From IMG/VR virus record IMGVR_UViG_3300044820_000043, positions 1 to 39,195 of that record: a DNA stretch of 39,195 nucleotides; one strand, 5' to 3'. The number at the start of each line of letters is the position of its first letter. The stretch's first letter is position 1. Positions 22,037 through 39,195 of the stretch are shown piece by piece. The stretch is from a virus (taxonomy: Duplodnaviria; Caudoviricetes). The notes below the pieces were generated by a model. That model was given only the letters and a program-made list of their open reading frames with translations. It was not told the DNA's origin and searched no databases. Position numbers and translations under genes: made by a program.

Positions 22037-23665
22037 TTACTGCTTCGTCAAGAGTTGCCGAGCCCAGTGCCGAGCCGTGCCGTCTTTGCAGGACGTACAC
22101 CAGGCGGATTCGCGGCCGAACTGCACGAACGAATCGCGCGTATAGGACAGGCCGTATTCGTTGCGGATGATGTTCGACGGATGCGCTTCTACGATGAGCA
22201 CAGGACCGTGCCATATGTCCCAGGCTTCGTCAGCGGGGCATTGATGCAGGCTCGGCCGGTCGAGCCAGATCGACGTGTCCAGAATCATCGTTCCGTTGAT
22301 GTGGTCGTGCTCGCGCATGCGCGGGCCGGTGACTCTCTTTCCGTGCAGGCGCGTTTCGGCGTGCGCGGCTTTGAGACGGTCGATCCAGTCCTTCGTCATC
22401 GGGGCGCCGTCGGCCTCGAAGAAAAACGCCGAGCCGCACGAACGATTGCCTTGGTAGAACTCGGCGCAGAGCTGCGCAAGCGCACTAGCCCATGGGTCAT
22501 AGCAGACACCGGGGTAGGTCTTCCTGGCGTCGATCTTCGCCGTCAGGCGCGTGTAACGAAATTTTCGACCTACGCGAATCATGCGTAGATTGTCTTCCGG
22601 TGTGATCTGCGTGCCTTGCTGGGCTGCGAATACGAGAAGGACGTCGTCGCGGGGCTCGGGCTCGATGTCCGCTAATAGCTCGGCGAGCCCTAGCGCTTCG
22701 TGTTTGTCTTTCTCCCAGAACTGGAGCACGAGGGAAAGCGGCAGTCCGTTGTGCTTCGCAGCTTGTCGGCACATGGCCTCTTCGTCGCGCCATCCTTGGA
22801 TTTCCGCGGTCGTCGGGATGTGCCGAGCGGGGACGGACTTCGTAGGAGTAGGCGTATACGACTCTTTCGGCATCGCTACGTCCAGAAGATCCGACGAGAG
22901 AGGCGAAATGCGTTTGCCCCCTATGTCCAAGACGGTATCCGTAGGACGGAAGCCCGCACGATGGGTACTAACGACGTCGAGCAACTTCATTTTGTTGGCG
23001 ACACCTTTGGTCCAGTTTGCGTGATGGACGAGAAGATCCGCAGGCGGGTTTACCGGCATTCCAGGTTCCCAGTGCTTGTTATTGCGCCCGAAGGTCCAGT
23101 ACCGCTCAGGTAGGACGGAATTGCGGGGCGCGGGGATGTCTCCGTCCATGAAGTGTTCGACGAACGTAATCACGTGCATCGCATCCTGGTCGAGCTTGCC
23201 GGTAAGATACATCTCAGCCTGTACGCTTTGCCAAAACAGTCGCGTTCGTTCACTGGGGACAATCACCATGAAGCCGGAGCACTCTGCGCCAGCAGGCCCG
23301 TCCCATTGGAACGCTTGATCGGCATCCCGTCTTCCCAGGAAATCGAGAAGATCAGCCGTCACAGGGGCGTAGAAACGTACATCGACGTCCGCGTACAAAA
23401 ACGGCTGCTTTTCTCGTTCCAGGATTTCAAGGATGTAATACACCTTCGCGAAACACGTCTCGAAAAAACCACGTGTCCCGTACTCCCCCGTTGGGCTTTG
23501 TTGCGGAAGACGGCGAATGTGCAAGCGCGCATTTGGCCGCGCAGTCCATGGATCGTGCGTTTGTGCGTGAAAGGCAGCCTGTCCGAACTCTTTTTGTGCG
23601 GTAGGCAGGAAGTGACTGCACAACAGTTCGTGGTGCGAAGGCGAGAAGCAGGAATACAGTCTCAT
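22037..23665 (-). CDS. Two-domain glycosyltransferase (N-terminal nucleotide-diphospho-sugar transferase/GT77-like; C-terminal second GT-A-like domain)
   Basis: N-domain motifs FLYADVDVRF (DxD), CSGFM, DQD, LP..Y and HHANWTKG..NK. After a Pro-rich linker, the second domain has FFFEADG.P..DWI..L, HINGT and AWDIW. Confidence 0.78.
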   Translation of the reverse strand: MRLYSCFSPSHHELLCSHFLPTAQKEFGQAAFHAQTHDPWTARPNARLHIRRLPQQSPTGEYGTRGFFETCFAKVYYILEILEREKQPFLYADVDVRFYAPVTADLLDFLGRRDADQAFQWDGPAGAECSGFMVIVPSERTRLFWQSVQAEMYLTGKLDQDAMHVITFVEHFMDGDIPAPRNSVLPERYWTFGRNNKHWEPGMPVNPPADLLVHHANWTKGVANKMKLLDVVSTHRAGFRPTDTVLDIGGKRISPLSSDLLDVAMPKESYTPTPTKSVPARHIPTTAEIQGWRDEEAMCRQAAKHNGLPLSLVLQFWEKDKHEALGLAELLADIEPEPRDDVLLVFAAQQGTQITPEDNLRMIRVGRKFRYTRLTAKIDARKTYPGVCYDPWASALAQLCAEFYQGNRSCGSAFFFEADGAPMTKDWIDRLKAAHAETRLHGKRVTGPRMREHDHINGTMILDTSIWLDRPSLHQCPADEAWDIWHGPVLIVEAHPSNIIRNEYGLSYTRDSFVQFGRESAWCTSCKDGTARHWARQLLTKQ

Positions 23666-25847: not shown

Positions 25848-26092
25848 GTGGGGTATCCGCCACGGAGAAGAGCCCATGCAGTGAAAAAGGCAAGCGCGCT
25901 CACCCAAGGCGGTGCTTCGGTGTGCTTGGCGGCTACCATCCCGGCGCGCATGCGTTCGGACAGCTCTTTCTCGCAAGTTTTCCAGGCTGCGAATTCATCA
26001 GCACCGAGCCCCTTGGCTTGCTTGTACGCCTTTTCCAGCGTGTCGTACCGATCACAAAGATCGGCGATCTCGTTGGTCGTCAGAAGGGGCAT
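25844..26092 (-). CDS. Hypothetical protein
   Basis: Helical ~82 aa (MPLLTTNEIADLC..), coupled to both neighbouring genes. Confidence 0.55.
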   Translation of the reverse strand: MPLLTTNEIADLCDRYDTLEKAYKQAKGLGADEFAAWKTCEKELSERMRAGMVAAKHTEAPPWVSALAFFTAWALLRGGYPT

Positions 26093-26808
26093 TGGCCACC
26101 CCCTTCTTTCCTGTTGTCCTTGCGGTAGAAACACCACTTACAACGGTACGACGGCGTAGGCTTGAAAGACGTATCGGCCAGCATCGGAGCTGCGCGCTTC
26201 TCCCAGTAGGCTTTAGCCGCGACAAGGTCCGTCACGACCATTGAACGATCTCGAATCTCACCCTCGTCGAGATAGTACAGCTCGGAGAACGCCGTTTGCG
26301 GGGAGTGCGTGACGATACCGGAATCATCAGCCGCCAAGACCAACGCACAGAGGTTGTACAGCTCGACTTGATCGACCTTGTCTTCGTATACGCGCCCGGT
26401 CTTAATATCGACCACACGCACGCGCCAATGCTTTTTCTGGCCGGGGATCAGCTCTTCCCAGAAAATGTCCATCTCGATTCGCAGCCACGCGGCTTTGTCG
26501 AAGTAGTCACACACCTTCCATTCGCGATTGAAGGCGATCTTTTTCTTGACCACGAGCCGCTTGGAAATCTTCCGCAACGCTGCCAACTCTTCGGGGAATC
26601 GTTCGCAGCTCGTCGGGAGCTTGTCCACGCGGCCGAAGATGTAGTCGAGCGCAGCGGCCTCCGTCGCCTTGCCTACCTTGAGCACTTCCCGCTCAGGTTG
26701 TGCGATCTTGTCGATGTTCTGGCATTTGCACGCAAACGGGCAGCCTTCCCAAGATAGTAAGCGTGAATAGGACCAGGCGGTCAACTGAGGGGGTCGTTTG
26801 ATGGGCAA
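26080..26808 (-). CDS. PD-(D/E)XK exonuclease (Cas4/RecB-like)
   Basis: WSYSRL..W.GCP, D....VVDIKTG, QVELY and C-terminal P...CKWC.Y......CP cysteine cluster; GAGGAG RBS before a TTG start. Confidence 0.87.
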   Translation of the reverse strand: MPIKRPPQLTAWSYSRLLSWEGCPFACKCQNIDKIAQPEREVLKVGKATEAAALDYIFGRVDKLPTSCERFPEELAALRKISKRLVVKKKIAFNREWKVCDYFDKAAWLRIEMDIFWEELIPGQKKHWRVRVVDIKTGRVYEDKVDQVELYNLCALVLAADDSGIVTHSPQTAFSELYYLDEGEIRDRSMVVTDLVAAKAYWEKRAAPMLADTSFKPTPSYRCKWCFYRKDNRKEGGGQCPF

Positions 26809-26883
26809 GGGGCTACTCCTCTTTGGTTACACGAATGAAAGGGATCTCAACTCGAAACACTAGGAAACGCACCAGATTGACGC

Positions 26884-28932
26884 TCATGCTGCCTTCCGCA
26901 CTTTCTGGTCGCCCAAGGCTCGCCGGGCAGCCTTGCGCTTCCGCATTTCGGCGAGGTAGACGAGCTGGCCTTTCTTGTCGTACGGCACCAGCGCGCCCCA
27001 ATTGGAGCCCGTCTGGCCTTCGGATAGCATCGGCACGTCAAACTTGACTGACGACATCGCTTTGCCGAGGACTCGGTGAGCTTCGGCCATGTCCGCCTTG
27101 GGTACGGACAGCACGAATTCATCATGGACTGTCATCAAAAGGCGCCACGAGGGGTGCTTCCGCCGAATGGCCGCCCACAGGTTCAGAATCGTCCGCTTCG
27201 TGTTGTCGGCCGCGCTGCCTTGGATCAGCAGGTTGAGCATCTTGTATTCGAACGTGCGCATGGTGCGCTTGCCGTTCGAATCCACCACCATACGCGGCTC
27301 TTCGACGTAGTATTCGCGGCCGCCCCACGTGCGGATCGGCAGCTTCGCATCGCAGCGCTTGCGAAGCTTGCGGCTCAGTTCGATCAAGCCAGGAACGGCT
27401 TTCTTCACGGCCTCGGCAATCGCGACCAAATAGGGGCTTGGGATACCGTATTCGTCCGACAGTCGCGCGATACCAGGACGGCCCATGCCGTAGATGACGG
27501 CGAACACGATCCGCTTGACGACGTCACGGGAGACTTCGGCCCCCATCAGCTCGTTAACCCGTCGGTTCACGAGCGCGTGGACGTCGAGCCAGTTATCGTC
27601 GAGGTACTTCGCCAGCAGCAACCCGTCCGCGTAGTGCGCGAAAATGCGCAATTCTTGCTGGCTGTAGTCGCGGTCGATCAGAACATGACCGGGGAGCGCG
27701 ACGATGTACCCGCGCACGTTCGGCAGATCCGGCCAACCAAGCGCGATCCACCACTCGGGAGCGGCTTTGTTGGCGCCCTCGGCCGCCGTGCCGAACAGCA
27801 ACGGCGCTCGCTTCGGGAGGTTCTGGAAATTCGGCGTGCTCGATAAGCGGCCAGTACGCGCCCCATTGTCGTCGGTCCTGGTCGTGTTCCAGATGGTGTA
27901 AATGAAGCCATTCGACCGCGCGGCAACGGCAAGCCACGGCTCCATGAACGTACGCAACGACACGCTCAAGCGCGAGCGGTACTTCAAAACCGTAAGCGTT
28001 TGCGGGCACGTCACAGCCCCCGCGAGCGAGTCTTTGTTGCTGGCGTCCTTGCCCGTCTTGGTTTTCTTGAGCTTGGCCGCATCGACAAGCCCAGCTTTGC
28101 GCAGCCACTTAAGCAACGTGGCCGAACTACCCCATTTCGTTCCTACAGGGGCGCCGGTCTTCGCCTCTAGCCAAGCATCGGCTTTCGCGAAGGCAGCCTT
28201 GTACAAAGCGACGTCGGCACGCAAACGCTTGAGATCGACCGGCACGCCGCCCGACTCCATGGCGTGGATGGGGGAAAGCAGGAACCGCTCGACGTCGTAC
28301 GCGGCAAGCATCTTTCGCAAGGCTAGCTCGGACAAAAGCTTCCGTGCGAGCCCGCGCGCACGCAGGACGTCGCCGCAAGCGTAGCGCTTCACCAGTGGGA
28401 CCGGGGCGTAGGCGGTGTACGCACCAGCATAGGCCGTCGATGCGCCCACCTTGCGTTTGTTCTTGGGCTCCGTGGCAGTGAGCTTCACACCGGGAATCGG
28501 TTGATGCTTGACCAACCAAGCTATGACCGCGTCGCGCTCCGTCGGCGCCTCGCCTAAGAGTTCAGCCGCGCACGGCTTGAGCTTGAACGTCTTGCGCCTG
28601 GGGTCTTGCAGAAACAACATCAGGTTCGTGTCGTGGACACGTTCCGATGCAAGCTCGGGCAACTTCATGTGCTCGATGGCGACGTCATACGCATCGAACT
28701 TGGTGTTGTGGCAGCAGACGGGGCGCTTGGACTTCCACACCGCACGTAGCGCGTGGCGCGCTTCGGAAAAAGTATGCGTGTTGCCGCCGTTCGGATGGGC
28801 GAATGCGTAGTATTTCGGCTTCTGGCCTGGCCACAAGATCGAAACTCCTACGGGCTTCGGCGGACCTTCGGGCCTTGGCCGAATGGGCAACGTCTCGAAA
28901 TCGACGTACACCCAGCTACTACACGACACCAT
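26884..28932 (-). CDS. polA: DNA polymerase family A with 3'-5' exonuclease domain
   Basis: Exonuclease motifs VDFET, HNTKFD and YACGD; TGRLSS.PNFQNLP; motif A DYSQQELR; motif B R..VK..VFAVIYG; motif C VHDE. Start placed at ATG 28932 after an AGGGGG RBS. Confidence 0.95.
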   Translation of the reverse strand: MVSCSSWVYVDFETLPIRPRPEGPPKPVGVSILWPGQKPKYYAFAHPNGGNTHTFSEARHALRAVWKSKRPVCCHNTKFDAYDVAIEHMKLPELASERVHDTNLMLFLQDPRRKTFKLKPCAAELLGEAPTERDAVIAWLVKHQPIPGVKLTATEPKNKRKVGASTAYAGAYTAYAPVPLVKRYACGDVLRARGLARKLLSELALRKMLAAYDVERFLLSPIHAMESGGVPVDLKRLRADVALYKAAFAKADAWLEAKTGAPVGTKWGSSATLLKWLRKAGLVDAAKLKKTKTGKDASNKDSLAGAVTCPQTLTVLKYRSRLSVSLRTFMEPWLAVAARSNGFIYTIWNTTRTDDNGARTGRLSSTPNFQNLPKRAPLLFGTAAEGANKAAPEWWIALGWPDLPNVRGYIVALPGHVLIDRDYSQQELRIFAHYADGLLLAKYLDDNWLDVHALVNRRVNELMGAEVSRDVVKRIVFAVIYGMGRPGIARLSDEYGIPSPYLVAIAEAVKKAVPGLIELSRKLRKRCDAKLPIRTWGGREYYVEEPRMVVDSNGKRTMRTFEYKMLNLLIQGSAADNTKRTILNLWAAIRRKHPSWRLLMTVHDEFVLSVPKADMAEAHRVLGKAMSSVKFDVPMLSEGQTGSNWGALVPYDKKGQLVYLAEMRKRKAARRALGDQKVRKAA

Positions 28933-28942
28933 CGCATGCCCC

Positions 28943-29164
28943 CTATTTAGACGTGAGACCGCGCAGCCGCTTCTTTGGCACTCGAAGCTTCTGCGTGTAG
29001 TTCGCCACGATAACGCCCGCATCCGTCGTCAAGGGGTGTTCTCGCCGCTCTTTGAAGATCCTGCGCAAGAGGTGTTCGTACTCACTCTTCTGCGCCTGTA
29101 GCCGAGCCACAAGCGCCGTCCGCTGTTCGGCCTCGATCTTCTTTGACAGTGTCAGCGCTTCCAT
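28943..29164 (-). CDS. Hypothetical coiled-coil protein
   Basis: 73 aa, helical, tightly packed in the operon. Confidence 0.55.
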   Translation of the reverse strand: MEALTLSKKIEAEQRTALVARLQAQKSEYEHLLRRIFKERREHPLTTDAGVIVANYTQKLRVPKKRLRGLTSK

Positions 29165-29168
29165 GGGC

Positions 29169-29378
29169 CTACTTCGCCGCGCGGCCGACCTTGTCCAATT
29201 CCGTGCGCTCGCGATCCCCCCGCATGCGATTGTAGCGGGCGTGCGCGCGCATTAGGAACAGCTTGCGCGACTTGCCGGCCTTCTCCTCCTCAAGTGCTTT
29301 CTTGGCGGACTCCTCGGTTGCAGTCTTCAAGAACACGTTCAAGCTGTACCACGATACCAGGGCCTGTTTTACGGTCAT
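29169..29378 (-). CDS. Hypothetical protein
   Basis: AAGGAG RBS; 69 aa with 'SW..LN..L' and 'R....R.H.RYN..R...ER.EL' pattern, upstream of the polymerase. Confidence 0.7.
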   Translation of the reverse strand: MTVKQALVSWYSLNVFLKTATEESAKKALEEEKAGKSRKLFLMRAHARYNRMRGDRERTELDKVGRAAK

Positions 29379-29394
29379 TGCTACGATCTCCTTT

Positions 29395-29576
29395 TACGTG
29401 AGGGCGCTTCCAGGGCTTCCAACCCCCAACTACAAGACCAACACGAAGGATGGCGATAGTTGTCCGGCATGAAGAAGCGCTTGCACCGTTTCCCTCTCCG
29501 TCGGGTGCGATGGCGGTAGGATGGTGTGGAACGGGCGAGAGCGGCGCCCATCCACGGGCCGAGGAAGCCCCCGTGA
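29395..29576 (-). ncRNA. Candidate structured intergenic RNA
   Basis: Several stems plus interleaved pairings GGGCTTCC/GGAAGCCC and GCGCTTC/GAAGCGC in a ~200-nt gene-free gap. Confidence 0.4.
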
Positions 29577-30470
29577 CTAGAACTTGTCCTTACCTCGTTT
29601 CTTGCCGCCCGACGAGGCCTTGCCCGACGTCTCCTCTTCGCTCGTGTCGTCGCCCTTGTCTTTGCCGCCCTTCTCAGCCTTCGCTGACATCTTCGGGTAG
29701 GGGCGCACCAAGACGGGCATCGCCGCCATGCCGCGCCTACGCAGCACGGCGAGCTGCGCTTTCGTCACAAGCCCGAGGTTCTCGAACGTCACCATGGGGT
29801 AGTCGTCGTCATTCAGCGCGACTTTGATCAGCGTATGGACACCGTAGAGCGGCCGTTGCTCGGTGTCAGCGATGCAGCGAAGGTACTTCGCGAAATTGTT
29901 CAACGACGTAGGTGGTACGCTCAGAGTGACCACATCGTTCTTTTCCAGTCTCGCCAGATCTGCGGCGTTGTCCGTGTAGGGGATGAAAACGCCGTTGGGC
30001 TGTACAGCGCCGTCCTCGACGAACGCCACGCGGATCGAATCGCGGCAGGCCTTGCCGTTGCCTTGGCGAGCGGTGCCGAATTCGTTCCACTTGCACTTGT
30101 CGCACGCTTCAGCTTGGCGCTCACTGCACTCGGCATGGGGGAAGATCCCGCTAAGCTTCGGCCCGAAACCAAAACAGACGGGCGTGGCGCCTTCCTGCTT
30201 GGGATTGTAGGCCTCGGCGTAGTACGCCTTCGAGGCAGTGTGCGCGACGACCACGCACGCGAGCTGCCCCGACGCAATGACGGTGTCGCCGATGGTGAGC
30301 TTGCCGCCCTTGATGCTCGCGACCAGGTTCCCGCCGAGATCAGCGACAGTTTCCTTCGCCTTCTGCGCCTCTTCGGCCAACTCCAGTTCCCAAGCTTCCA
30401 GCGCTACGTTTGGATCGCGCGGGGCTAGGGCTCTTGTCGCTTCCGGTGCCAAATCCTTCTTCTTACTCAT
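29577..30470 (-). CDS. Putative single-stranded DNA-binding/recombination protein
   Basis: GAAAGGA RBS; 'YY...Y.P....P.CF', 'C..C.WNEFG.A..G.GKACR' and 'L.VPPTSL.NF..Y' motifs; charged tail; located in the replication module. Confidence 0.65.
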   Translation of the reverse strand: MSKKKDLAPEATRALAPRDPNVALEAWELELAEEAQKAKETVADLGGNLVASIKGGKLTIGDTVIASGQLACVVVAHTASKAYYAEAYNPKQEGATPVCFGFGPKLSGIFPHAECSERQAEACDKCKWNEFGTARQGNGKACRDSIRVAFVEDGAVQPNGVFIPYTDNAADLARLEKNDVVTLSVPPTSLNNFAKYLRCIADTEQRPLYGVHTLIKVALNDDDYPMVTFENLGLVTKAQLAVLRRRGMAAMPVLVRPYPKMSAKAEKGGKDKGDDTSEEETSGKASSGGKKRGKDKF

Positions 30471-30510
30471 GGGATCGTTCCTTTCAGTGGTCGTGGGGAT
30501 GCTATGCGAA

Positions 30511-30580
30511 CAAAAACGCTCGCGAGGCCCGTAACCGCACACGACGGAGGGAGGCTGTGCGTAGCCTCGCGAGCACAAAA
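30511..30580 (-). ncRNA. Candidate antisense sRNA / terminator-like hairpin with an anti-Shine-Dalgarno loop
   Basis: 11-bp stem GCTCGCGAGGC/GCCTCGCGAGC (30574-30564 with 30528-30518), inner stem CGCACA/TGTGCG, loop GCCTCCCTCCGTCG, followed by GTTTTTG. Confidence 0.5.
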
Positions 30581-30586
30581 TTTCAG

Positions 30587-30687
30587 TGGGGAGGGTTGGA
30601 TTCGAACCAACAATTCCGAGACTAGGTCTTAAGCCCTTACCTCTCGGACCCGCTTTCGCGGCGGCTTTCGCTTTCGCCTACCTCGCC
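30587..30687 (-). ncRNA. tRNA-like RNA (non-canonical, no standard anticodon arm)
   Basis: Acceptor GGCGAGG/CCTCCCC plus discriminator A (one C:C mismatch), T8-A9, D-like stem GGC/GCC, canonical T arm GTTGG-TTCGAAT-CCAAC, and two intervening hairpins. Confidence 0.72.
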
Positions 30688-30694
30688 GTAAATC

Positions 30695-31165
30695 TTAGCG
30701 CTTGGTGACGGACACGGTCTTCTTGTTGAAGCGCGCGATGCCGGGGATAGCTTCCTTGGCTTCCCACCTGTCGGAGATCGCGCGCGTGTTGAGCCTCTTT
30801 TGTAGCAGATCGAATGCTGCATGCTGGGCCAAATGCTTAGCCAGCGCACGCGCTGATAGACGCTTGTGCTTCGCTGTCTCGATGGCGCCTTCGAGAAGGT
30901 ACGTGTACACCTTCTCCCAACCAGCTTCGGCCTCGACCGTGGGGATCACCTTCGTGACGATGATCGCCTTGGCAATCTTGCCAACTACACCGTCTGCATC
31001 GTCGGCGGGGAGCTTCCGTATTAGCGCGTCTTCCAGCATCGTCAACTGGACTTCGAACACGTCAACCTCACGCTGCCGACGGGCTTTCTCTTCCCGCAAT
31101 GTCAGGATCATGTCGGTGCATGCGCCCAGCGACGCGGGGACTTTGAACGTCTTTTCTTTGCTCAT
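30695..31165 (-). CDS. Conserved phage protein (possibly Gp157/Gam-like)
   Basis: AAGGA RBS; N-terminal coiled coil, 'W..VY.Y', 'FDLLQKRL' and 'IPGI..F.K..VSVTK' motifs. Confidence 0.6.
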   Translation of the reverse strand: MSKEKTFKVPASLGACTDMILTLREEKARRQREVDVFEVQLTMLEDALIRKLPADDADGVVGKIAKAIIVTKVIPTVEAEAGWEKVYTYLLEGAIETAKHKRLSARALAKHLAQHAAFDLLQKRLNTRAISDRWEAKEAIPGIARFNKKTVSVTKR

Positions 31166-31770
31166 GGTGTGGTGTTCCTTAGTGCGAGGCATTGCGAAAC
31201 AATCGCCTCAACGTCTCGGTGGGTCTCATCCAAAGGTCCGATCCAAAGTGCTTCGGGGTTATAGCGATGCTGCGGGTCAGTCCAGATATCGCGGTAGGCA
31301 TTCTGGAGTCTCAGCAAGTAGGCACTGCCTTGCGTTTCGTAGAAGTCCTTACCGCCCTTCTCTTCGAGACGGGCGTCGATGACGTCGACGTCGCCGACGA
31401 GAAGGATCTCGACGTCCGCCGAAGGCGTGCCGCGTGTGATGGCTTCCCACCACCAATAGGGGATCCCGAAAGCACCGCCGTACACGTACCCGCTCATGTA
31501 AAAGCGGTCGCACACAATCGTTGTACTCGCATACCGCCCCTCGGCGAGTTTGAGCGACAGTGTACGCTCCAAACGGCAGGCGAGTTGTAGAGCCTGGAAG
31601 GCTTCGGGATACTTAGCGCAGGCCGGACCCTCAAGCATGCGCTCGATGGCTTGGCCTGCCTTCGTCGAGCGATCTGGGAAATGTAGGCAAGGAACGTCGA
31701 GCTTCGTAGCCAGGGCTTGCGCGAACGTTGACTTACCTACCCCGTCAATGCCTTCGACCGAAATAATCAT
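31162..31770 (-). CDS. tmk: Thymidylate (dTMP) kinase
   Basis: IISVEGIDGVGKST P-loop, FPDR and IVCDRF..SG.VY motifs. Confidence 0.92.
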   Translation of the reverse strand: MIISVEGIDGVGKSTFAQALATKLDVPCLHFPDRSTKAGQAIERMLEGPACAKYPEAFQALQLACRLERTLSLKLAEGRYASTTIVCDRFYMSGYVYGGAFGIPYWWWEAITRGTPSADVEILLVGDVDVIDARLEEKGGKDFYETQGSAYLLRLQNAYRDIWTDPQHRYNPEALWIGPLDETHRDVEAIVSQCLALRNTTP

Positions 31771-31779
31771 CCCGAAACC

Positions 31780-31820
31780 GTTCTAAACTAGTCTTGTATC
31801 ACTTGTCAAATATTATTTTA
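31780..31820 (-). promoter_or_regulatory. Putative sigma70-type promoter upstream of tmk
   Basis: AAAATAATAT-TTGACA (31809-31804)-N18-TAGAAC in an AT-rich island; the -10 is imperfect. Confidence 0.5.
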
Positions 31821-32176
31821 CCGTCGGGAAACTCCCAAAAACCAAGCTTGCCTTTGACGTCGATGGGCTTGCAAAGCCGCGCGTTTCGCAGCTCGAAATG
31901 GTGCGTTCCTGGTGAAGCCCATCGGCTTAGGCTCGTGCGGATGCAGTCGGTAAGATCGACCACGCCGATCAAAGCGCCACACTCTAGCGTAAGTGGGACG
32001 TCTGCGCCCGAGATGCGCGCGACCTTTTCCGCGTCGTCGTCTGCGCCTGCCAGCGATGCCGAAGCATGGATGCCTAGCGGACCTCGGTAGCTCGTGAACC
32101 ATGATCGATTCTCGACGTCTTTTTTCGCGTGTAAAACAGCCCAAGCCCACACAGGGCGCAACGTTAGGCACTTCAT
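31799..32176 (-). CDS. ASCH domain protein
   Basis: MKCLTLRPVWAWAV...KDVENRSW.T.YRG.L.IHAS, GALIGVVDL.DC and KGKLGFW motifs. Confidence 0.92.
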   Translation of the reverse strand: MKCLTLRPVWAWAVLHAKKDVENRSWFTSYRGPLGIHASASLAGADDDAEKVARISGADVPLTLECGALIGVVDLTDCIRTSLSRWASPGTHHFELRNARLCKPIDVKGKLGFWEFPDGKIIFDK

Positions 32177-32188
32177 TTCGGGTAGCTC

Positions 32189-32455
32189 CTAACCGTGGAC
32201 GTTGCCGAATCCCAACGCCAGATCCCGAACACTTCGTGCGCCGAGCTTCGCCGCTTCGTAGGACTTTCGTACATACATCATATGCCGCGCAATCTCGGCG
32301 CTGCGTTCGTGCTTCTCTGTGATCGTGCGAACTGCAAACGTCGTTGCATCGTACATCGTCAGGAAAGAAGACACCGACCACGAAGCCACACGACCCCCTC
32401 TGATGACAGTGTCGAACACTTTCACTTTGTACTTGATTTCTGGCTCTGCTTTCAT
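32189..32455 (-). CDS. Hypothetical protein
   Basis: AGGA RBS; overlaps the upstream lipoprotein stop. Confidence 0.5.
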   Translation of the reverse strand: MKAEPEIKYKVKVFDTVIRGGRVASWSVSSFLTMYDATTFAVRTITEKHERSAEIARHMMYVRKSYEAAKLGARSVRDLALGFGNVHG

Positions 32456-33012
32456 TTAGCACACATCCTTCCGGTATCTGGGTTGCTCGTCGTCGGGCAT
32501 TGCCGACACAAAGAAAACTGGTCCCACGAAGTGCAAGGCGGACTAAGGCGCCATGCTTGCGCGGACGTCGTCGCGTGCGAGGCGCACAACGTAGGTTGCG
32601 GCGTGAGACGTCCATAAACGCACATGCAGCAAGGCGCCGTAGGAACGCCGAGATCATTACACGGCTGGTATCCTGCCTCGTTCGCGGCACACTCACTAGG
32701 CCGCGCATCGGCCGAAGGTTCCACAGTCGGCGGACTGGGTAGCGTGTCCGCCGTCGGTTCTGGAGTCGGTGTAGGATCTGGAGTCGGCGGACTGAGTAGC
32801 GTGTCCGCCGTCGGTTCTGGAGTCGGCGGACTGAGTAGCGTGTCCGCCGTCGGTTCTGGCGGTACTACGTACGGCAAGGAAGGCGCTTCGATTGAAGCGC
32901 CCGATCCACGCATGGGCGAAGTGCTCGCGTCTTGTCGTGGCGCTTGACTGCCAGCCTCCTCCGCGCAAGACGCGAGCAAACCCAGGGTTAACACGAGCGT
33001 TGTCTTTTTCAT
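32452..33012 (-). CDS. Lipoprotein with Pro/Thr repeat stalk and Cys-rich tip
   Basis: MKK-hydrophobic-LLAS|C lipobox, PEPTADTLLSPPT repeats, ten Cys in the C-terminal domain; GGGAG RBS. Confidence 0.78.
   Translation of the reverse strand: MKKTTLVLTLGLLASCAEEAGSQAPRQDASTSPMRGSGASIEAPSLPYVVPPEPTADTLLSPPTPEPTADTLLSPPTPDPTPTPEPTADTLPSPPTVEPSADARPSECAANEAGYQPCNDLGVPTAPCCMCVYGRLTPQPTLCASHATTSAQAWRLSPPCTSWDQFSLCRQCPTTSNPDTGRMCAK
32725..32859. repeat. 39-bp coding tandem repeat (3 copies)
   Basis: Copies at 32782-32820 and 32821-32859 are identical; the copy at 32725-32763 differs at one base and is separated by an 18-bp related insert. Confidence 0.9.
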
Positions 33013-33042
33013 GTCTCCCAGTCTAGCGTACTTTGTGAACGC

Positions 33043-33474
33043 TCAAGACATACGCCGAAGGACTTCGCCCACGTTCTTTGAATGCAGTAAGCGCGATCTC
33101 GGCCGCTTGCACCCATCGACGGCGGACGTATAGCGGCGTGATACCAAGACGTATCCCGCATCTGCAACGAGGTAGTCACCAAGGCCAAGAAAAGGGAAGC
33201 GACCTTCCCAGCTTCCCGCAGTGTCGCCACAGAAATCAAGATCGGGTAGCGCATCGCCTGTGATGGGCGGATGTAGTGCGTAACATTGGGAAGCCTTTTC
33301 CTCTAGCAAGGCTAGAAAAGTCGCATGTTCGCGCGGGTAGCGTTCGATTAGAAGGCCTGCGGCCACTACCGCAAGGCGCATACCCTCGGCCTTCGGTGCC
33401 GGCCATAGCAGGCGGTATGCCGTCGACAGATTGCCGTCAATGATCTGCTTCTTAATTTCACCGACCTTGTGCAT
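33043..33474 (-). CDS. Hypothetical protein
   Basis: GGAAGGG RBS before MHKVGEIKKQ; the 3' half overlaps a competing ORF (33009-33254). Confidence 0.45.
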   Translation of the reverse strand: MHKVGEIKKQIIDGNLSTAYRLLWPAPKAEGMRLAVVAAGLLIERYPREHATFLALLEEKASQCYALHPPITGDALPDLDFCGDTAGSWEGRFPFLGLGDYLVADAGYVLVSRRYTSAVDGCKRPRSRLLHSKNVGEVLRRMS

Positions 33475-33734
33475 GTTCAACCCTTCCAATCGTTTTCGGG
33501 CGCGTTACGTAGGATCCTCTGTAATCTTGCGCGGGCCTCGGTACATTGGCACAGTACCCGAGATGTCACGCAAGGCGAACGGAATGCTTCTGTGGTGGGT
33601 TTCGCCTTTGCACGTGCGACACTGCGCGGTTATGCCGTGCGGTTCTACATAGTGAAGGTTCCCACAATGGACGCATACACACAAAACCCATTGATCTTTG
33701 TGGCGCTAGATTGGGCGGACTATGCCGGACGTCC

Positions 33735-34169
33735 TCATGACGGCACCAATCCAAACGCCTTGAGACTTTGCCGAACGTCAACGGATCTGCACGCGTGAAG
33801 ACGTGCAAGCCTGGACACTCCCAATTCTTCTAGCACTTCTACCATGCGCGGAACGTCCTCGGGATCAAGCTCGCCCTCTTGGATGATCGCAAACCATCGC
33901 TTGCGCGAATCTTCCGGGATAGCGCGAACGTCCTCTTGCGTGCTTTTCCAGTCCTCTACCACGTACAAGATCGCGCGCAAAAGATCTTTCGTGGTACCGT
34001 ACTCTAGCTTATGGCGTGGTACTGCATCGCCTATCGTTTCGGCCATTTCGCGCACGAGCGTGCGGATAGATGCCTCCGAGTCCATGCAATCCGCTACCTC
34101 TTGTTTCGCGCACTCAAGCTCAATTCGCAATTGCGCGATCTCTTCTGCTTTCGTCGGTTTCCGTGCCAT
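33735..34169 (-). CDS. Hypothetical helical/coiled-coil protein
   Basis: Strong GGAGG RBS; 144 aa, charged and helical. Confidence 0.7.
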   Translation of the reverse strand: MARKPTKAEEIAQLRIELECAKQEVADCMDSEASIRTLVREMAETIGDAVPRHKLEYGTTKDLLRAILYVVEDWKSTQEDVRAIPEDSRKRWFAIIQEGELDPEDVPRMVEVLEELGVSRLARLHACRSVDVRQSLKAFGLVPS

Positions 34170-34197
34170 GTTGCCTCCGTCGTTTCAGGTGGGAAAA

Positions 34198-34259
34198 TCC
34201 GTCGCTCTAGACTGCCTGCTAGCCTCCTTTGACCTAGCAGGCAGGGTTACAACGACGGA
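34198..34259 (-). promoter_or_regulatory. Long intergenic hairpin (terminator, processing site or riboregulator)
   Basis: 11-bp inner stem CTGCCTGCTAG/CTAGCAGGCAG (34212-34222 / 34234-34244), outer stem TCCGTCG/CGACGGA, followed by TTTT on the - strand. Confidence 0.6.
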
Positions 34260-34553
34260 CTAGATCCCAACGTAGGGACCATGCAGGACGCGCGCGTCCT
34301 CATGCAGTCCGAAGAGCGTTCCGGGCACTTTGACGACGATCAAGCCCACATACTTCCGACACTCCAGGCATACGCCGTCGTCTTCGTAGCTTCGATCATC
34401 CTTGCCGATGCGCCGCCCAGTGCCGGCCACGTGGAAGGGTGCCGCCTTGCACACTGGACAGAAACCGCTGAATTCCGCGTAACTGTCCGTCGTGCCGTGG
34501 CAGATCCTAACGTCGTCGGCTGTCTTCAAGCTCATGTGCTTTGTGGCGTGCAT
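34260..34553 (-). CDS. Small zinc-ribbon protein
   Basis: CPVC ... CLEC cysteine pairs; 97 aa. Confidence 0.65.
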   Translation of the reverse strand: MHATKHMSLKTADDVRICHGTTDSYAEFSGFCPVCKAAPFHVAGTGRRIGKDDRSYEDDGVCLECRKYVGLIVVKVPGTLFGLHEDARVLHGPYVGI

Positions 34554-34558
34554 GGCGC

Positions 34559-35713
34559 TTACTTCTTTCCAAGCGCTAGGCCTGCCTCGCGTTCCAGATC
34601 TAGGCGTGTTTCCGCGTCAACGTCGTCTTGTCGAGCTACCCACGAAATTGCATTTGAGAGGCGCCATTGTGTGTTGCCAGGTGGCAGGGCTTCCACGTCC
34701 GCCGTATTGAACGCGGACGCGATACGTTCGGCAACGCCTTTGCCCAGTCGCTTCCGCAGATCTTCAGCCGAGCGCTTGGCTTCAATAGGCGTGTTAGCAG
34801 CCGTCCGCATGATGTCCGCCGTACGTTCGATATGGATGGGCGAGAGAAGCGCGCGCGCGGCATCCCGCATCGCCAGGGTTAACGCGCGCGAATCGGCCGC
34901 AATCGTGCTCGCGCTGTACTGGACTTCATAGTCAGTCAAGCGGCCGCCTAAGTGCACCTGCCTCAGAGCTTGCTCCAGTGTCGCGCCATTCAGGCACCAC
35001 ACTCGCATACAGAACGGTGCCAAGCTTTGCGCGCCTTTGCCGTAGTCGCTGTTACTCCAGGCGAGGCCTAGCACCACAAATTCACCGGGCGCGATCTCCA
35101 GGACTTTGGGCAAAAGGATGCGCACGGATGCGCGTACGTCCAAGACAACGGCATCCGTCACGAGCGCGCCGACTTTCTGCGCCTCGCCTAGTAGAGCGTC
35201 AAGCGCCGGACGGCAATCAATGCGCCGAAAACGGTCCGAAAGTACCGCGCGCGCTTGACCCTTGCAAGCACGTACCAGCATACGTTCAGATTGCGGAAGG
35301 TGCTTCGCGTGTTCTTTCAGAGTGTGCGCTAGCAACGGTTGGGCCCATTCCTTTTCGGGATGGGTTTGCAGATGCCGTGCATAGGACCCGTGGATCTCCA
35401 TTTTCTCGGCAAGCTGGGTCAGTGCATTGTCATGGATCCGCATCGGATCTTCGCCGCTCAACTGCATCCGCGCTACGCCGTCCGCACCTACCGCGAAATC
35501 AAGCGCTTTTCCACGCACAATGAAATCGGTAGGGACTTCACTTAGGATTCGTTGTATCGGCAGCTCGGCGCGCGTCTTAGCCGTCGCCACGTACCGATCA
35601 AGGATTCGGCGCGCGGCTTCTTGATCGTGCGGCTGCAAAGTGCCGGCATCGACGCGCGCATGGTGGGGATCGAGGATCTGTCGGGACTCTACGATCTGGG
35701 CTGGGTTGACCAT
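34559..35713 (-). CDS. DUF932-family protein
   Basis: 'RAVLSDRFR.ID', 'G...SNSD.G.GA......R.WCLNG' and 'T.W.L.NAIS..A' motifs; GGAG RBS. Confidence 0.8.
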   Translation of the reverse strand: MVNPAQIVESRQILDPHHARVDAGTLQPHDQEAARRILDRYVATAKTRAELPIQRILSEVPTDFIVRGKALDFAVGADGVARMQLSGEDPMRIHDNALTQLAEKMEIHGSYARHLQTHPEKEWAQPLLAHTLKEHAKHLPQSERMLVRACKGQARAVLSDRFRRIDCRPALDALLGEAQKVGALVTDAVVLDVRASVRILLPKVLEIAPGEFVVLGLAWSNSDYGKGAQSLAPFCMRVWCLNGATLEQALRQVHLGGRLTDYEVQYSASTIAADSRALTLAMRDAARALLSPIHIERTADIMRTAANTPIEAKRSAEDLRKRLGKGVAERIASAFNTADVEALPPGNTQWRLSNAISWVARQDDVDAETRLDLEREAGLALGKK

Positions 35714-35930
35714 TGGGATCTCCGTCGTGTGTTGGTTGGTTGAACTGCTACCCTATGGCACAAGCTACGATGTAAGCGGCTACGTATTAAGTAAGGCTCT
35801 AGCGTGCGCACCTTGCACGCTGGCTCTAGTATTTTGATCCAGATCTGACTCTGTACCCATTCGCGGATGGATGCGGATTCGACTAACGGCAAAGCCTCAT
35901 CTAGCAGGGCTTCCGCTTGTGAAGGTTCCA

Positions 35931-36470
35931 TTAGCAAGAACCTCGCAAAGCCAAGCTAACAAACCCGTCGGTCGCGACTACCACATGATCCAACATCGTG
36001 ATGCCTACCAATTCGCCCGCGTCGCGGATCCGTCGGGTCAACTCCAGATCGGCGCGCGATGGCTCAGGATCTCCCGATGGGTGGTTGTGCACGCAAATGA
36101 AAGCGGCCGCACTGCGTACGATGGCTTCGCGCAGTAGTTCGCGCGGATGCACTTCAACGCCAGTGAGAGATCCGATCGCCACAGTCCAGCGTTCACCGAT
36201 CAAACGGTGCCGCACGTCCAAGAAATACACAAAGAAGTGTTCCCGCGTCTCAGTCCGTGCGATCTCTCGCGTATCCGTCCACAATTCCGCCGAATTGGTG
36301 AAGATCTTTCGGCCAGTTTGCGAAACAGGTTGACAGCTTGGCGTATAGCTTGGCGCTACCTCGGTAGGCGCCTCAGATTCCGCGCGCATCGGTTGCGCGA
36401 CTAGTTCGGCCATGCTGAGAACTGGAATCTCTATAGTCGTCGCGGCTTTCTCTGTTCGTCGTCGTGCCAT
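35931..36470 (-). CDS. radC: RadC-like JAB/MPN domain protein
   Basis: REHF.V.FLD.R.RLI, GSL....VHPRE, HNHPSGDPEPSRAD..LT and LDHVVV motifs; lacks the N-terminal HhH part of chromosomal RadC. Confidence 0.93.
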   Translation of the reverse strand: MARRRTEKAATTIEIPVLSMAELVAQPMRAESEAPTEVAPSYTPSCQPVSQTGRKIFTNSAELWTDTREIARTETREHFFVYFLDVRHRLIGERWTVAIGSLTGVEVHPRELLREAIVRSAAAFICVHNHPSGDPEPSRADLELTRRIRDAGELVGITMLDHVVVATDGFVSLALRGSC

Positions 36471-36494
36471 GGTCTAGCCTACCTTTCAAGTGCC

Positions 36495-36535
36495 AGAGTA
36501 AACCCATAACTGACACGTGACAAGATATATTTTTA
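36495..36535 (-). promoter_or_regulatory. Sigma70-type promoter with UP element and overlapping operator-like site
   Basis: AAAAATATATC-TTGTCA (36523-36518)-N17-TACTCT (36500-36495), then GAAAGG RBS and the radC ATG. TGTCACGTGTCA overlaps the -35. Confidence 0.72.
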
Positions 36536-36552
36536 AGTGACTTTTGACGCGG

Positions 36553-36852
36553 CTAGGTCTCGGGTTTGCGGCCGCTTCCGTGGCATGCGGGACATATGAC
36601 TACCAGTTTGCGCCAATTCGGACCGACTCTTTCGACACTCCGCGAGCCTCTGCAAGTGGCGCACTGTCCGCGCTTTTCCTTGGTTGCCGTTAGCACTTTC
36701 CAGGCATCTTGTAGTCGAGCCCATCCGGCTGCATCGGCGCTTCCCGTATCAGGATGCAAGCGACGGCAAACCGCACGGTAGGCAGTGCGGATCTCTGTCT
36801 CACTGGACAGATCCGTACACCCTAGGAAAGCCAAGGCTTGCACTTCGGTCAT
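36553..36852 (-). CDS. Mini DnaJ-like protein (J-domain plus single Zn finger)
   Basis: LG......EIR.AYR.....LHPD J-domain followed by CATCRGSR...CPACHGSG. Confidence 0.88.
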   Translation of the reverse strand: MTEVQALAFLGCTDLSSETEIRTAYRAVCRRLHPDTGSADAAGWARLQDAWKVLTATKEKRGQCATCRGSRSVERVGPNWRKLVVICPACHGSGRKPET

Positions 36853-37343
36853 TTCTTGCGCCTCTTGGCTTTCTTTCCAGGCTCTACCAAATGCGCGGCC
36901 GCGCGGCCTAGTCGCTGAAGCCCTTGCACTTCGATTTGCCGCGCCCGTTCGCGCGTGAGGTTGAGGAGTAGCCCGACAGTTTCAAGCGTAGCGCCGTCGC
37001 GCTCGGCAACGTCCAGCGCGCACGACTCATCAGGCGGCACGTCGCCGGGGCTGCGGTGTGGATGGTGGATGCGCACGTCGCCCGTGGCGCAGACTTCGAG
37101 GTAGAGGTTCTGGCTGCATCCGACGTACGGGCACGGCCGGGGCACGTCGGCGCACTCCGCCCGACATCCTGGCCGCCAGTGCTCCGTGGGGTACTTCGTC
37201 GCCGCGACCTTGTCCTTACGCCGTCGCGGGATGCGAATCAGCACGGGCTTGCGGGGCTCGCCTGTGCCGAGGGTACAAAGGCACGGAGCCTGTAGGTATT
37301 GCCGCGAACCGTCGCAGTAGCAAGGACCTACGGGGCGTCGCAT
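36849..37343 (-). CDS. Cys-rich protein with sigma70 region 4-like HTH
   Basis: RP..RAEC...PRPCPYVGC..NLYL, SCALDVAE and TLETVG..LNLTRERARQIE..GL.RL motifs. Confidence 0.82.
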   Translation of the reverse strand: MRRPVGPCYCDGSRQYLQAPCLCTLGTGEPRKPVLIRIPRRRKDKVAATKYPTEHWRPGCRAECADVPRPCPYVGCSQNLYLEVCATGDVRIHHPHRSPGDVPPDESCALDVAERDGATLETVGLLLNLTRERARQIEVQGLQRLGRAAAHLVEPGKKAKRRKK

Positions 37344-37534
37344 GCGAACGACTCCAGTGCAAACTGTGCCGTCGCGAGGTTGGCTTCCGCTTCGGCCAGC
37401 CCCTTGAGCGCGTCTTCGAGCGCTCGTTGCGCCTTCGCCACGCGCGTCTGTTGGAAACTGCGGGTGACTTGCGCCCGCGCAACGGCATTCTGTTTCTCGC
37501 ACAGGTCCCGAATTGTCTTCATGGGGTCACGCAT
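37328..37534 (-). CDS. Hypothetical coiled-coil protein
   Basis: Heptad-like Ala/Leu pattern; packed between neighbouring genes. Confidence 0.5.
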   Translation of the reverse strand: MRDPMKTIRDLCEKQNAVARAQVTRSFQQTRVAKAQRALEDALKGLAEAEANLATAQFALESFACDAP

Positions 37535-37790
37535 CCGATTGGTCGTACAACGCCCTCAAGTTAGCCAAGCTGGTCACCGCCGACTCCAGCACCGCTTCGC
37601 GATGGATGGGGTAGGACTTAGCCACCTGGTACACCACGCTCAAGGAAATGCGCGTAATCTCCCGCCAAGAGAAGCCCTCGCCTCGGCATGTAGCGACGAA
37701 CGTCCGCGCCTTCGCAATCTGGAGCCCTTCACGGTCCCCGAGTGCCGGTTCTTCCACAATCTCAGCATCCGCCAGTTCATCTCCGCTCAT
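37527..37790 (-). CDS. Hypothetical protein
   Basis: AGGAG RBS before MSGDELADAE (37790). Confidence 0.55.
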   Translation of the reverse strand: MSGDELADAEIVEEPALGDREGLQIAKARTFVATCRGEGFSWREITRISLSVVYQVAKSYPIHREAVLESAVTSLANLRALYDQSDA

Positions 37791-37866
37791 GTAGCCATCT
37801 CCTATGTCCGCCGTCTGTCCGATTGCTAAGCTCGCACAAGATCCGCAGAATTTGGACAGGGCCTCG

Positions 37867-38070
37867 TCACGTCGTCGACATGCTCTTGATGAAAGCTTTA
37901 CGACGTCGCGCCGCGTGCGGAGCAAAGAACGTCCTCCCAGGCCTTAGGGCCGCCCGCCAAAGGACCCACGTCTTCCGCCGTTGCTTGCGGGTACGTCGGC
38001 CGGTGTACCAGCCTGCCCAGACGACTGTCATTGACAGCTTAAGCTTGCGTGTGTGGTGGTGGTACTTCAT
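37867..38070 (-). CDS. Small Arg/Trp-rich hypothetical protein
   Basis: GAGGGG RBS; 67 aa, very basic. Confidence 0.4.
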   Translation of the reverse strand: MKYHHHTRKLKLSMTVVWAGWYTGRRTRKQRRKTWVLWRAALRPGRTFFAPHAARRRKAFIKSMSTT

Positions 38071-38135
38071 GGCCCCTCACTCGGGAGTGGGGGTAGCAAG
38101 ACTTTCTTCGTTCGCATCTTCGAGCCTGCCCTTTC

Positions 38136-39194: not shown

Positions 39195-39195
39195 C

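What the first reader, a model, noticed from the sequence alone, without database searches (positions are those of the whole stretch)
30587..30687. tRNA mimic with intact acceptor stem and T arm but a rebuilt anticodon region
Seen (- strand): GGCGAGG-UA-GGC(GAAAGCGAAA)GCC-G-CCGC(GAAA)GCGG-G-UCCGAGA(20 nt)UCUCGGA-AUU-GUUGG(UUCGAAU)CCAAC-CCUCCCC-A. The expected anticodon position holds a 4-bp GNRA-tetraloop hairpin, the D-loop lacks GG, there is a C3:C70 mismatch, and no CCA is encoded. The stems are too well paired to look like random decay. An alternative reading treats CCGAG/CUCGG as the anticodon stem with a partial bulge-helix-bulge 15-nt insert, leaving GUA (Tyr), but A32/G33 would be non-canonical. 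Inference: a non-decoding tRNA mimic, serving as a processing signal, a decoy for anticodon nucleases or tRNA-sensing defences, or a Y-RNA-like scaffold.
Basis: partly seen in the sequence, partly recalled or inferred. Interest (0 to 1): 0.75.

Follow-up and report, generated by a model that had tools for sequence, protein, structure and literature searches.

The report
Sealed tRNA mimics bracket phage gene
An uncultured phage carries a 101-base sequence predicted to fold like a tRNA but with no usable anticodon, sitting just before a likely single-stranded-DNA-binding gene that has a second, conserved tRNA look-alike behind it; the pair most likely marks where host tRNA-trimming enzymes would cut the phage message, which is untested.

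Summary
In detail: 25 of 26 cloverleaf pairs are Watson-Crick, and 0 of 1,500 simulated windows gave this fold. It is not a called tRNA or an Rfam family. It lies in a phage replication operon, 7 nt after a stop codon and upstream of a likely gp32-type gene. It has no homologue: two close relatives have only a hairpin or a short spacer there. Two new results: (1) the long arm's tip matches a phage tRNA-Leu(UAA) anticodon arm over 12 nt (5 of 2,000 shuffles), so the ancestral anticodon looks displaced, not Tyr/intron; (2) behind the same gene, this phage and both relatives share a second unit, a predicted pseudoknot plus tRNA-like top half with compensatory changes. Best reading (0.45): an RNase P/Z cut signal (t-element-like) that helps excise that gene's mRNA. 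Rivals: decoy (0.2), decaying captured tRNA (0.2), attenuator (0.1). There are no RNA data. The scan already noted sealed-anticodon mimics on other phage DNA; none resembles this one in sequence.

The parts
30587..30687 (-). The finding: 101-nt tRNA-like element (acceptor, D arm, sealed hairpin, long arm, T arm, A73)
30681..30687 (-). Acceptor stem 5' strand; pairs with 30588-30594 (6 of 7, C3:C70 mismatch); discriminator A73 at 30587
30663..30678 (-). D arm: 3 bp, 10-nt loop without G18G19; A15 can face U48
   Evidence: Leu identity set from PMC9976931 passages
30650..30661 (-). 4-bp hairpin with GAAA loop in the anticodon-arm position
   Evidence: pair probability 0.94-0.99
30615..30648 (-). 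Long arm: 7 bp, internal loop, 3 bp, terminal loop
30624..30635 (-). 12 nt identical to the anticodon stem-loop centre of a phage tRNA-Leu(UAA) in L149; heptamer loop at 30627-30633
   Evidence: 5 of 2,000 shuffles reach 12 nt; the 7-nt-loop register is only 2% of the predicted ensemble
30595..30611 (-). Canonical T arm, 17 of 17 identical to tRNA-Tyr in L203, L211 and L305
30508..30574 (-). 11-bp GC-rich hairpin (30574-30518) with structured loop, followed by a U-run; terminator-, RNase III- or 5'-stabiliser-like; relative L010 has a ~20-bp hairpin at the same site
30695..31165 (-). Upstream gene (156 aa, PHROG 13900); its stop ends 7 nt before G1
29577..30470 (-). 297-aa gene, predicted OB-fold with invariant cysteines; likely gp32-type ssDNA-binding protein
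   Evidence: RB69 SSB core, prob 0.60, E 0.054; phiC31 RDF chain Z 8.3; gp32 Z 4.4
29481..29516 (-). Predicted H-type pseudoknot conserved in L010 (5148-5183) and L011 (3089-3161), ending 2 nt (L010, L011: 3 nt) after its conserved core, next to the acceptor stem that follows
29403..29480 (-). Second tRNA-like unit: 7 of 7 acceptor pairs, T stem 4 of 5, degenerate T loop, no D arm; orthologues L010 5184-5290 and L011 3162-3257 have canonical T arms
   Evidence: (E 7e-4 with a model built from L010 only)

Best explanation
The element is a tRNA-derived sequence, predicted not to decode, that most likely works as a cut signal for host tRNA-processing enzymes inside the phage's replication transcript. 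Shown: the fold, its place between two same-strand genes, and a second conserved tRNA-like unit behind the next gene. Inferred: RNase P would cut at G1 and RNase Z or another 3' trimming enzyme after A73. That would release the 101-nt RNA and leave the mRNA of the likely gp32-type gene starting at a strong hairpin. A cut at the downstream unit would leave the same mRNA ending in a pseudoknot, as mascRNA processing leaves MALAT1 ending in a triple helix. The outcome would be a separately stabilised mRNA for an abundant replication protein. The element probably came from a class II phage tRNA (Tyr-like body, Leu-UAA loop) that was rebuilt so that only the acceptor/T-arm half stayed canonical.
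For: (1) The acceptor and T arm, the half that RNase P measures (PMC11143913 passages), are canonical, while the decoding parts are rebuilt with fully paired new stems. (2) The slot is a processing-type slot: L010 has a ~20-bp hairpin there (z -7.2). (3) Behind the gene, 3 of 3 close lineages keep pseudoknot + acceptor + T arm with a freely varying interior (96, 107 and 78 nt). P1 changes on both sides at 3 of 5 pairs between L010 and L011, and the window's acceptor differs from theirs on both sides at most pairs. A model from L010 alone ranks the window and L011 copies first and second in 264,603 bases. The motif has 0 hits in 1.27 Mb of other loci. (4) Precedents: t-elements direct RNase P/Z cuts at mRNA ends (PMC1920247 passages). 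T4 gene 32 mRNA is cut on both sides of the gene at conserved sites, by RNase E (PMC3014915 passages), and is claimed as an RNase P substrate (PMC12710915 passage). (5) Missing CCA is no defect in the hinted host class: 26 of 30 fetched Polyangia-class tRNA matches also lack it (my reading).
Against: No homologue of the finding itself: absent at this site in 2 of 2 close lineages and not found by the pattern scans (parsed; one search covered 10 of 64 parts). The two models do not find each other's elements, so the likeness to the L010 unit is architectural only. In the 233-nt context the cloverleaf is not the sole predicted fold: z -0.5, and a rival fold lies within 0.5 kcal. The U-run after the hairpin looks like a terminator, which would make the element a transcript end, not an internal cut. 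G18G19 is missing, pair 3:70 is mismatched, and the leader and trailer can pair; any of these could slow cleavage. The window's downstream unit has a damaged T loop. The host is only hinted at.
Confidence: 0.45

Rival explanations
1. Free decoy RNA: after release the RNA acts in trans, showing a Leu(UAA)-type loop on the long arm to anticodon nucleases, or binding LeuRS or another tRNA sensor, while being unusable on the ribosome.
For: 12-nt identity to a real tRNA-Leu(UAA) arm. A73 and a possible A15-U48 pair are Leu identity elements, and E. coli LeuRS does not need the anticodon (PMC9976931 passages). Charged but non-translating irregular tRNAs occur in forest/peat soil transcriptomes (PMC5389517 section 16).
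Against: The 7-nt loop register is 2% of the ensemble. G18G19, needed for leucylation, is absent. None of the three downstream units shows such a loop (best matches 9, 8 and 0 nt). The consensus promoter scan of 26000-39195 found 1 site against 3.6 expected, none beside the element.
Confidence: 0.2
2. Recently captured tRNA gene in decay, with no current job; the tidy stems are a by-product of short duplications.
For: Singleton. Three overlapping or nearby copies of the same 8-nt hairpin motif, and the repeat of the acceptor's 5' hexamer in the downstream hairpin, suggest local duplications. C3:C70 and the lost GG look like point damage.
Against: 25 of 26 pairs are Watson-Crick, including two stems that no parent tRNA has. 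The lineage maintains another non-decoding tRNA-like unit with compensatory changes.
Confidence: 0.2
3. Attenuator or switch: the cloverleaf and the downstream hairpin compete, so cleavage of, or protein binding to, the tRNA-like part sets termination before the gp32-type gene.
For: In stepwise folding the cloverleaf is lost while the hairpin is half made (3' end at 30545-30520) and returns when it closes (30510). C3, unpaired in the cloverleaf, can pair with the hairpin's 3' arm. A U-run follows the hairpin.
Against: Prediction only. L010's hairpin has no U-run and no partner element. The terminator scan did not list this hairpin because its loop is long.
Confidence: 0.1
4. A decoding tRNA after intron removal (Tyr GUA with a bulge-helix-bulge insert, or Leu UAA), or a phage attachment site made of a tRNA 3' end.
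For: GUAA and the Leu-type heptamer both occur in the long arm; the 3' half matches tRNA-Tyr.
Against: No excision restores both a D arm and a 5-bp anticodon stem with U33 (read from the sequence). ARAGORN gives no call at default score. UUA is rare in both gene blocks (4 of 5,640 and 9 of 4,290 codons). No integrase among the 52 ORFs scanned (the record is about half complete), and the site is mid-operon.
Confidence: 0.04

Closest known systems
Plant mitochondrial t-elements (Forner et al. 2007, PMC1920247; passages read)
   Same: Non-canonical cloverleaf with an intact T arm, placed at mRNA boundaries; proposed RNase P/Z cut signal on the 5' and 3' sides of genes.
   Different: Here a phage in a bacterial host, with a class II-sized frame; cleavage not shown.
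MALAT1 triple helix + mascRNA (PMC6888369 and PMC9976931; passages read)
   Same: For the downstream unit: a compact structure directly 5' of an anticodon-less tRNA-like domain, so an RNase P cut would leave it as the 3' cap of the upstream RNA.
   Different: A predicted pseudoknot instead of a U-A-U triple helix; bacterial virus; the finding itself has no such cap.
Class II tRNA-Tyr/Leu/Ser (Rfam RF00005)
   Same: Acceptor, U8, T arm, A73, three unpaired nt before the T stem; a model of the element retrieves ordinary tRNAs, 13 of 30 fetched being Tyr.
   Different: Sealed 4-bp hairpin in the anticodon position, 34-nt arm, no G18G19, score below cut-off.
Allo-tRNAs and polycistronic irregular tRNAs (Mukai et al., PMC5389517; section 16, passages and supplement search seen)
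   Same: Soil/peat, long-armed, partly non-translating tRNA-like RNAs.
   Different: Those keep an anticodon loop and many have 8/4 or 9/3 stems; this is 7/5, single, and between protein genes.
T4 gene 32 mRNA processing and pseudoknot (PMC3014915, PMC12710915; passages read)
   Same: An ssDNA-binding-protein mRNA cut out on both sides, with a pseudoknot nearby.
   Different: T4 uses RNase E sites and a 5' autoregulatory pseudoknot; here tRNA-like units and a pseudoknot 3' of the gene.
YrlA Y RNAs (Chen et al. 2014, PMC4201824; passages read)
   Same: tRNA-like domain without decoding; one member is cut by RNase P.
   Different: [quoted passage not shown]

Membership tests
Canonical tRNA (RF00005) | 7-bp acceptor + 5-bp T stem with T-psi-C loop, U8 | tested here: met
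   6 of 7 and 5 of 5 pairs
Canonical tRNA (RF00005) | 5-bp anticodon stem with 7-nt loop and U33 stacked under the D stem | tested here: not met
   4 bp + GAAA at that position
Canonical tRNA (RF00005) | G18G19 in the D loop | tested here: not met
   sequence
Canonical tRNA (RF00005) | Score at or above the family cut-off (29 bits) | tested here: not met
   19.2 bits, partial; ARAGORN none
tRNA-Leu identity (bacterial) | A73 and A15-U48 | tested here: met
   sequence; set from PMC9976931
tRNA-Leu identity (bacterial) | G18:U55 and G19-C56 elbow contacts | tested here: not met
   no GG in the D loop
tRNA-Tyr identity (bacterial) | A73, G1-C72 and U35 in an anticodon loop | tested here: not met
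   A73 and G1-C72 present; no anticodon loop holds GUA
t-element / tRNA-like processing signal | Intact T arm and acceptor stem at a gene boundary of a polycistronic region | tested here: met
t-element / tRNA-like processing signal | RNA ends map to the element's 5' or 3' end | not testable with these tools
   no RNA holder listed
YrlA Y RNA | Permuted order (acceptor-like stem-loop between T and D arms) and a Ro60-binding module | tested here: not met
   ordinary order; no Rfam match; definition from PMC4201824
YrlA Y RNA | Ro60/TROVE gene in the genome | tested here: inconclusive
   0 of 1 record, which is about 48% complete
tmRNA | G3.U70 acceptor, tag reading frame, encoded CCA | tested here: not met
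   C3:C70, 101 nt; ARAGORN and Rfam none; features recalled
Allo-tRNA | 8/4 or 9/3 acceptor/T-stem split with an anticodon loop | tested here: not met
   7/5 fold; definition from PMC5389517
Theta / HDV-like ribozyme beside a tRNA | Nested double pseudoknot starting at the tRNA 3' end | tested here: inconclusive
   no Rfam match; by-eye check of the trailer found no fitting P1 (features recalled); no dedicated search run
gp32-type ssDNA-binding protein (flanked gene) | OB fold with zinc site | tested here: inconclusive
   confident model (pLDDT 89); best Z 8.3 to a phiC31 RDF chain, gp32 Z 4.1-4.4; Foldseek E 0.054

The most novel reading that the evidence does not exclude
This phage lineage punctuates its replication operon with tRNA mimics. 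One gene's mRNA is cut out by host RNase P/Z between two non-decoding tRNA-like units and left with a 5' hairpin and a 3' pseudoknot cap, a bacterial-virus counterpart of MALAT1/mascRNA 3'-end formation. The released upstream mimic doubles as bait, showing a leucine anticodon loop at the tip of its long arm instead of in the decoding position.
Probability: 0.22. Interest if true: 0.78.

Novelty: new variant of a known kind. Interest (0 to 1): 0.52.

Why it matters
Anticodon-less tRNA look-alikes keep turning up in phages with no assigned job. This locus offers a small, sharp test: one gene with a mimic on each side, and natural variants that swap the upstream mimic for a plain hairpin or for nothing. 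The downstream unit also has one naturally damaged T loop. If host RNase P/Z cut here, tRNA punctuation and mascRNA-style 3' capping, known from mitochondria and animal lncRNAs, would extend to phage mRNA. It would also mean that annotation tools miss a class of processing signals. If the element is a decaying capture, it is only a curiosity, although the downstream unit would still be an uncatalogued conserved RNA.

Tried and rejected
Homologues of the finding: blastn of cultured phages gave only chance-level hits. Viral pattern scans gave 8, 35 and 120 loci (the last stopped at 10 of 64 parts, about 820 expected). Of these, only L147 (a short-armed sealed mimic) and a doubtful L183 parsed as sealed, against 94 canonical-like parses over 212 loci. 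The look-up by sequence in the scan's notes found 0 windows. A single-sequence model found only ARAGORN-called tRNAs among 30 of 46 matches fetched from 42 of 150 Polyangia-class genomes, and 0 of 5 related phage records. Homologues of the downstream unit: the 6 viral and 60 genome pattern hits fail the structure check, except one without a T loop. The gap limit missed L010 itself by 1 nt and both scans exclude L011-length spacers, so they are not exhaustive. Distant relatives of the flanked gene and of the polymerase showed no such unit (57 sequences, 441,511 bases, canonical T loop required). Pair counting on alignment A8 was uninformative because the automatic alignment was out of register; the pairs were recounted by script. 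Long-range pairing between the upstream hairpin loop and the downstream unit ranked second of 7,833 windows in this phage but had no counterpart in L010 (my queries there took in part of the stem), so I dropped it. No RNA holder listed. Prophage or host search: none in genome contigs, and 1 weak match in 401 Polyangia-class genomes. ARAGORN at 80% of its threshold 'tRNAs' in the window, so its call at 30586-30671 means nothing. Literature: nine searches listed no paper describing this element or a pseudoknot-plus-tRNA-like unit behind a phage ssDNA-binding gene. The supplementary tables of PMC10690425 (10,006 candidate viral RNAs; main-text passages only seen) were not searched and may hold it.

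Full report
Setting. The window is a 39,195-base linear virus record, about 48% complete by CheckV. It holds contractile-tail structural genes on the + strand. On the - strand is a replication block: primase, thymidylate kinase, family A polymerase, exonuclease, VRR-NUC and SF2 helicase. One peat-metagenome run holds the stretch and may be its source. The host is unknown; the only two named organisms among the 120 listed RadC relatives are Polyangia, which is a hint only.

Observation. The element at 30687-30587 (- strand) reads and folds as described. 25 of 26 cloverleaf pairs are Watson-Crick, and the exception is C3:C70. The full fold appeared in 0 of 1,500 simulated windows, and T arm + acceptor + D arm in 3. 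ARAGORN makes no call. Rfam gives nothing over the window and 19.2 bits to RF00005 on the 3' part alone. It is a real tRNA derivative that cannot present an anticodon in the decoding position.

Ancestry. The T arm is identical to that of tRNA-Tyr genes (L203, L211, L305), although Gln, Asn, Val and Met genes among the 10 hits share it. A model of the element pulls mostly Tyr (13 of 30 fetched matches), then Gln 8, Ser 6, Leu 2 and Asn 1. The tip of the long arm matches over 12 nt the anticodon arm of a phage tRNA-Leu(UAA) that has a Tyr-like body (L149). Among 2,000 shuffles of the 51-nt interior, tested against 208 anticodon arms, 5 did as well. So the old anticodon arm seems to survive at the end of the long arm, with a new GAAA hairpin inserted ahead of it. 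This test was chosen after seeing the match, and that loop register is only 2% of the predicted ensemble. Leu identity is partial: A73 and a possible A15-U48 are present, G18G19 is absent (PMC9976931 passages). UUA codons are rare in both gene blocks, so there is no sign of a need for a decoder.

Immediate context. G1 lies 7 nt after the stop of a 156-aa gene. Twelve nt after A73 an 11-bp hairpin with a structured loop begins (z -2.7), followed by a U-run, then a 297-aa gene. That protein gives a confident model (pLDDT 89). Its best structural neighbours are a phiC31 recombination-directionality-factor chain (Z 8.3) and OB-fold ssDNA binders including gp32 (Z 4.1-4.4; Foldseek prob 0.60, E 0.054). 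'gp32-type' is therefore likely, not shown.

Relatives at the same site. L010 has both flanking proteins at 61% identity. It has no tRNA-like element here, only a hairpin of about 20 bp without a U-run. L011 and L012 (51-55%; near-identical to each other) have a spacer of about 40 nt. So the finding is absent in 2 of 2 close lineages, and no scan found a homologue elsewhere (see Tried and rejected). Selection on it rests on one sequence.

The other side of the gene. A T-arm search of L010's record rang once, downstream of the gp32-type gene. There L010 has a 107-nt unit with a perfect acceptor, a D-like arm, a short 4-5-bp hairpin with a 4-nt loop, a long arm and a canonical T arm. This is the finding's architecture in unrelated sequence. 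L011 has a 96-nt version, and the window has a 78-nt version at 29480-29403 with a 7-of-7 acceptor but a degenerate T loop. All three are preceded by a predicted H-type pseudoknot. P1 pairs 4 of 5, 5 of 5 and 5 of 5 (window, L010, L011), with changes on both sides between L010 and L011. P2 pairs 6, 6 and 7 of 7, and the linker ends in an A-rich motif. A model built from L010 alone ranked the window copy (E 7e-4) and the L011 copy (E 0.01) first and second in 264,603 bases; these E-values are rough. It did not find the finding, and the finding's model did not find L010, so the two are not detectably paralogous. Rfam has no match to these units above cut-off.

Mechanism. What the lineage conserves is the acceptor/T-arm half, with a free interior. 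That half is what RNase P measures, and model substrates made of it alone are cut (PMC11143913 passages). I therefore read both units as cut signals. Cuts at the finding would give the gp32-type mRNA a 5' end near a strong hairpin. A cut at the downstream unit would leave it ending in the pseudoknot, as RNase P cleavage at mascRNA leaves MALAT1 ending in a triple helix (PMC6888369 passages). t-elements do this in plant mitochondria (PMC1920247 passages). T4 cuts gene 32 mRNA on both sides at conserved RNase E sites, and that mRNA is unusually stable (PMC3014915 passages). L010's hairpin would serve the 5' role through an RNase III-type cut (inference from recalled T7 precedent). All cleavage steps are inferred. 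The t-element idea was first put to me by earlier notes of this scan; I checked the paper and the local evidence myself.

Against it. In the longer context the cloverleaf competes with another fold: within 0.5 kcal over 195 nt, lost while the hairpin is half made and regained when it closes. The U-run suggests termination. The elbow GG is missing, the leader and trailer can pair, and no RNA data exist. Hence 0.45, with decoy 0.2, decaying capture 0.2, attenuator 0.1 and decoding tRNA or attachment site 0.04.

Known or new. It is not a member of tRNA, tmRNA, YrlA or allo-tRNA by the tested features; it works most like a t-element. Nine literature searches listed no description of it, but most subscription papers and the candidate tables of PMC10690425 were not seen. 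tRNA-like RNAs of T-even phages are known to me only from a reference title, and those of T5 only from the scan's notes. The scan has noted many sealed-anticodon mimics on other phage DNA, including class II frames and one top-half mimic with a pseudoknot; these are unchecked AI notes, and none matches by sequence. What this locus adds is the displaced Leu loop, the bracketing of one gene, and natural variants of both slots.

Papers seen. Passages only: PMC7609411, PMC1920247, PMC11143913, PMC9976931, PMC10690425, PMC13434031, PMC12710915, PMC6888369, PMC4201824, PMC3014915. Passages, section 16 and a supplement search: PMC5389517. All others: search listings only.

Verdict. Observation confirmed; interpretation partly supported; new variant of a known kind; interest 0.52.

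Noticed in passing
window 29403-29516 (-); L010 5148-5290 (+); L011 3089-3257 (+): Conserved, uncatalogued RNA behind the gp32-type gene: predicted H-type pseudoknot, then acceptor stem and T arm with a freely varying interior; missed by ARAGORN and Rfam. Better supported by covariation than the finding itself and worth its own follow-up.
   Followed up: yes
window 30518-30574 (-); L010 3924-3974 (+): The hairpins upstream of the gp32-type gene differ in their stems but share a UCCGUC hexamer in their loops; the window's stem also repeats the finding's acceptor 5' hexamer.
   Followed up: partly
window 29533-29572 (-): Two further GC-rich hairpins between the gene's stop codon and the pseudoknot; L011 has extra hairpins inside the pseudoknot linker.
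   Followed up: no
L010 4916-5140 (+): A 74-aa ORF lies between the gp32-type gene and the pseudoknot unit in L010 only.
   Followed up: no
L147 285-356 (+): Short-armed tRNA look-alike in another phage with a 6-bp anticodon stem closed by a GGAA tetraloop.
   Followed up: no
L322 (G055:C93 161764-161890) and L303 541-665: About 125-nt tRNA-like RNAs in two Polyangia-class bins, with a long structured insert after the D arm; one lies in a tRNA array.
   Followed up: no
L333 (G138:C27 172146-172275): tRNA-Ser(CGA)-like gene with a large structured insert in the D loop and the same acceptor strand as the finding, but with C3-G70 paired.
   Followed up: no
L149 278-359 (+): Phage tRNA with a Tyr-like body and a Leu (UAA) anticodon.
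   Followed up: partly
L005 about 1960-2100 (-): 3' end of a phage tRNA preceded by what looks like the tail of a group I intron (motif recalled).
   Followed up: no
window 22037-23665 (-): 542-aa nucleotide-diphospho-sugar transferase gene at the end of the replication block; may modify DNA or surface structures.
   Followed up: no
window 17242-19164 (+): 640-aa Thr-rich low-complexity protein in the tail-fibre region with no family match.
   Followed up: no
window 32452-33012 (-): Lipoprotein-like ORF with 39-nt tandem repeats and a Cys-rich end, also present in L010.
   Followed up: no
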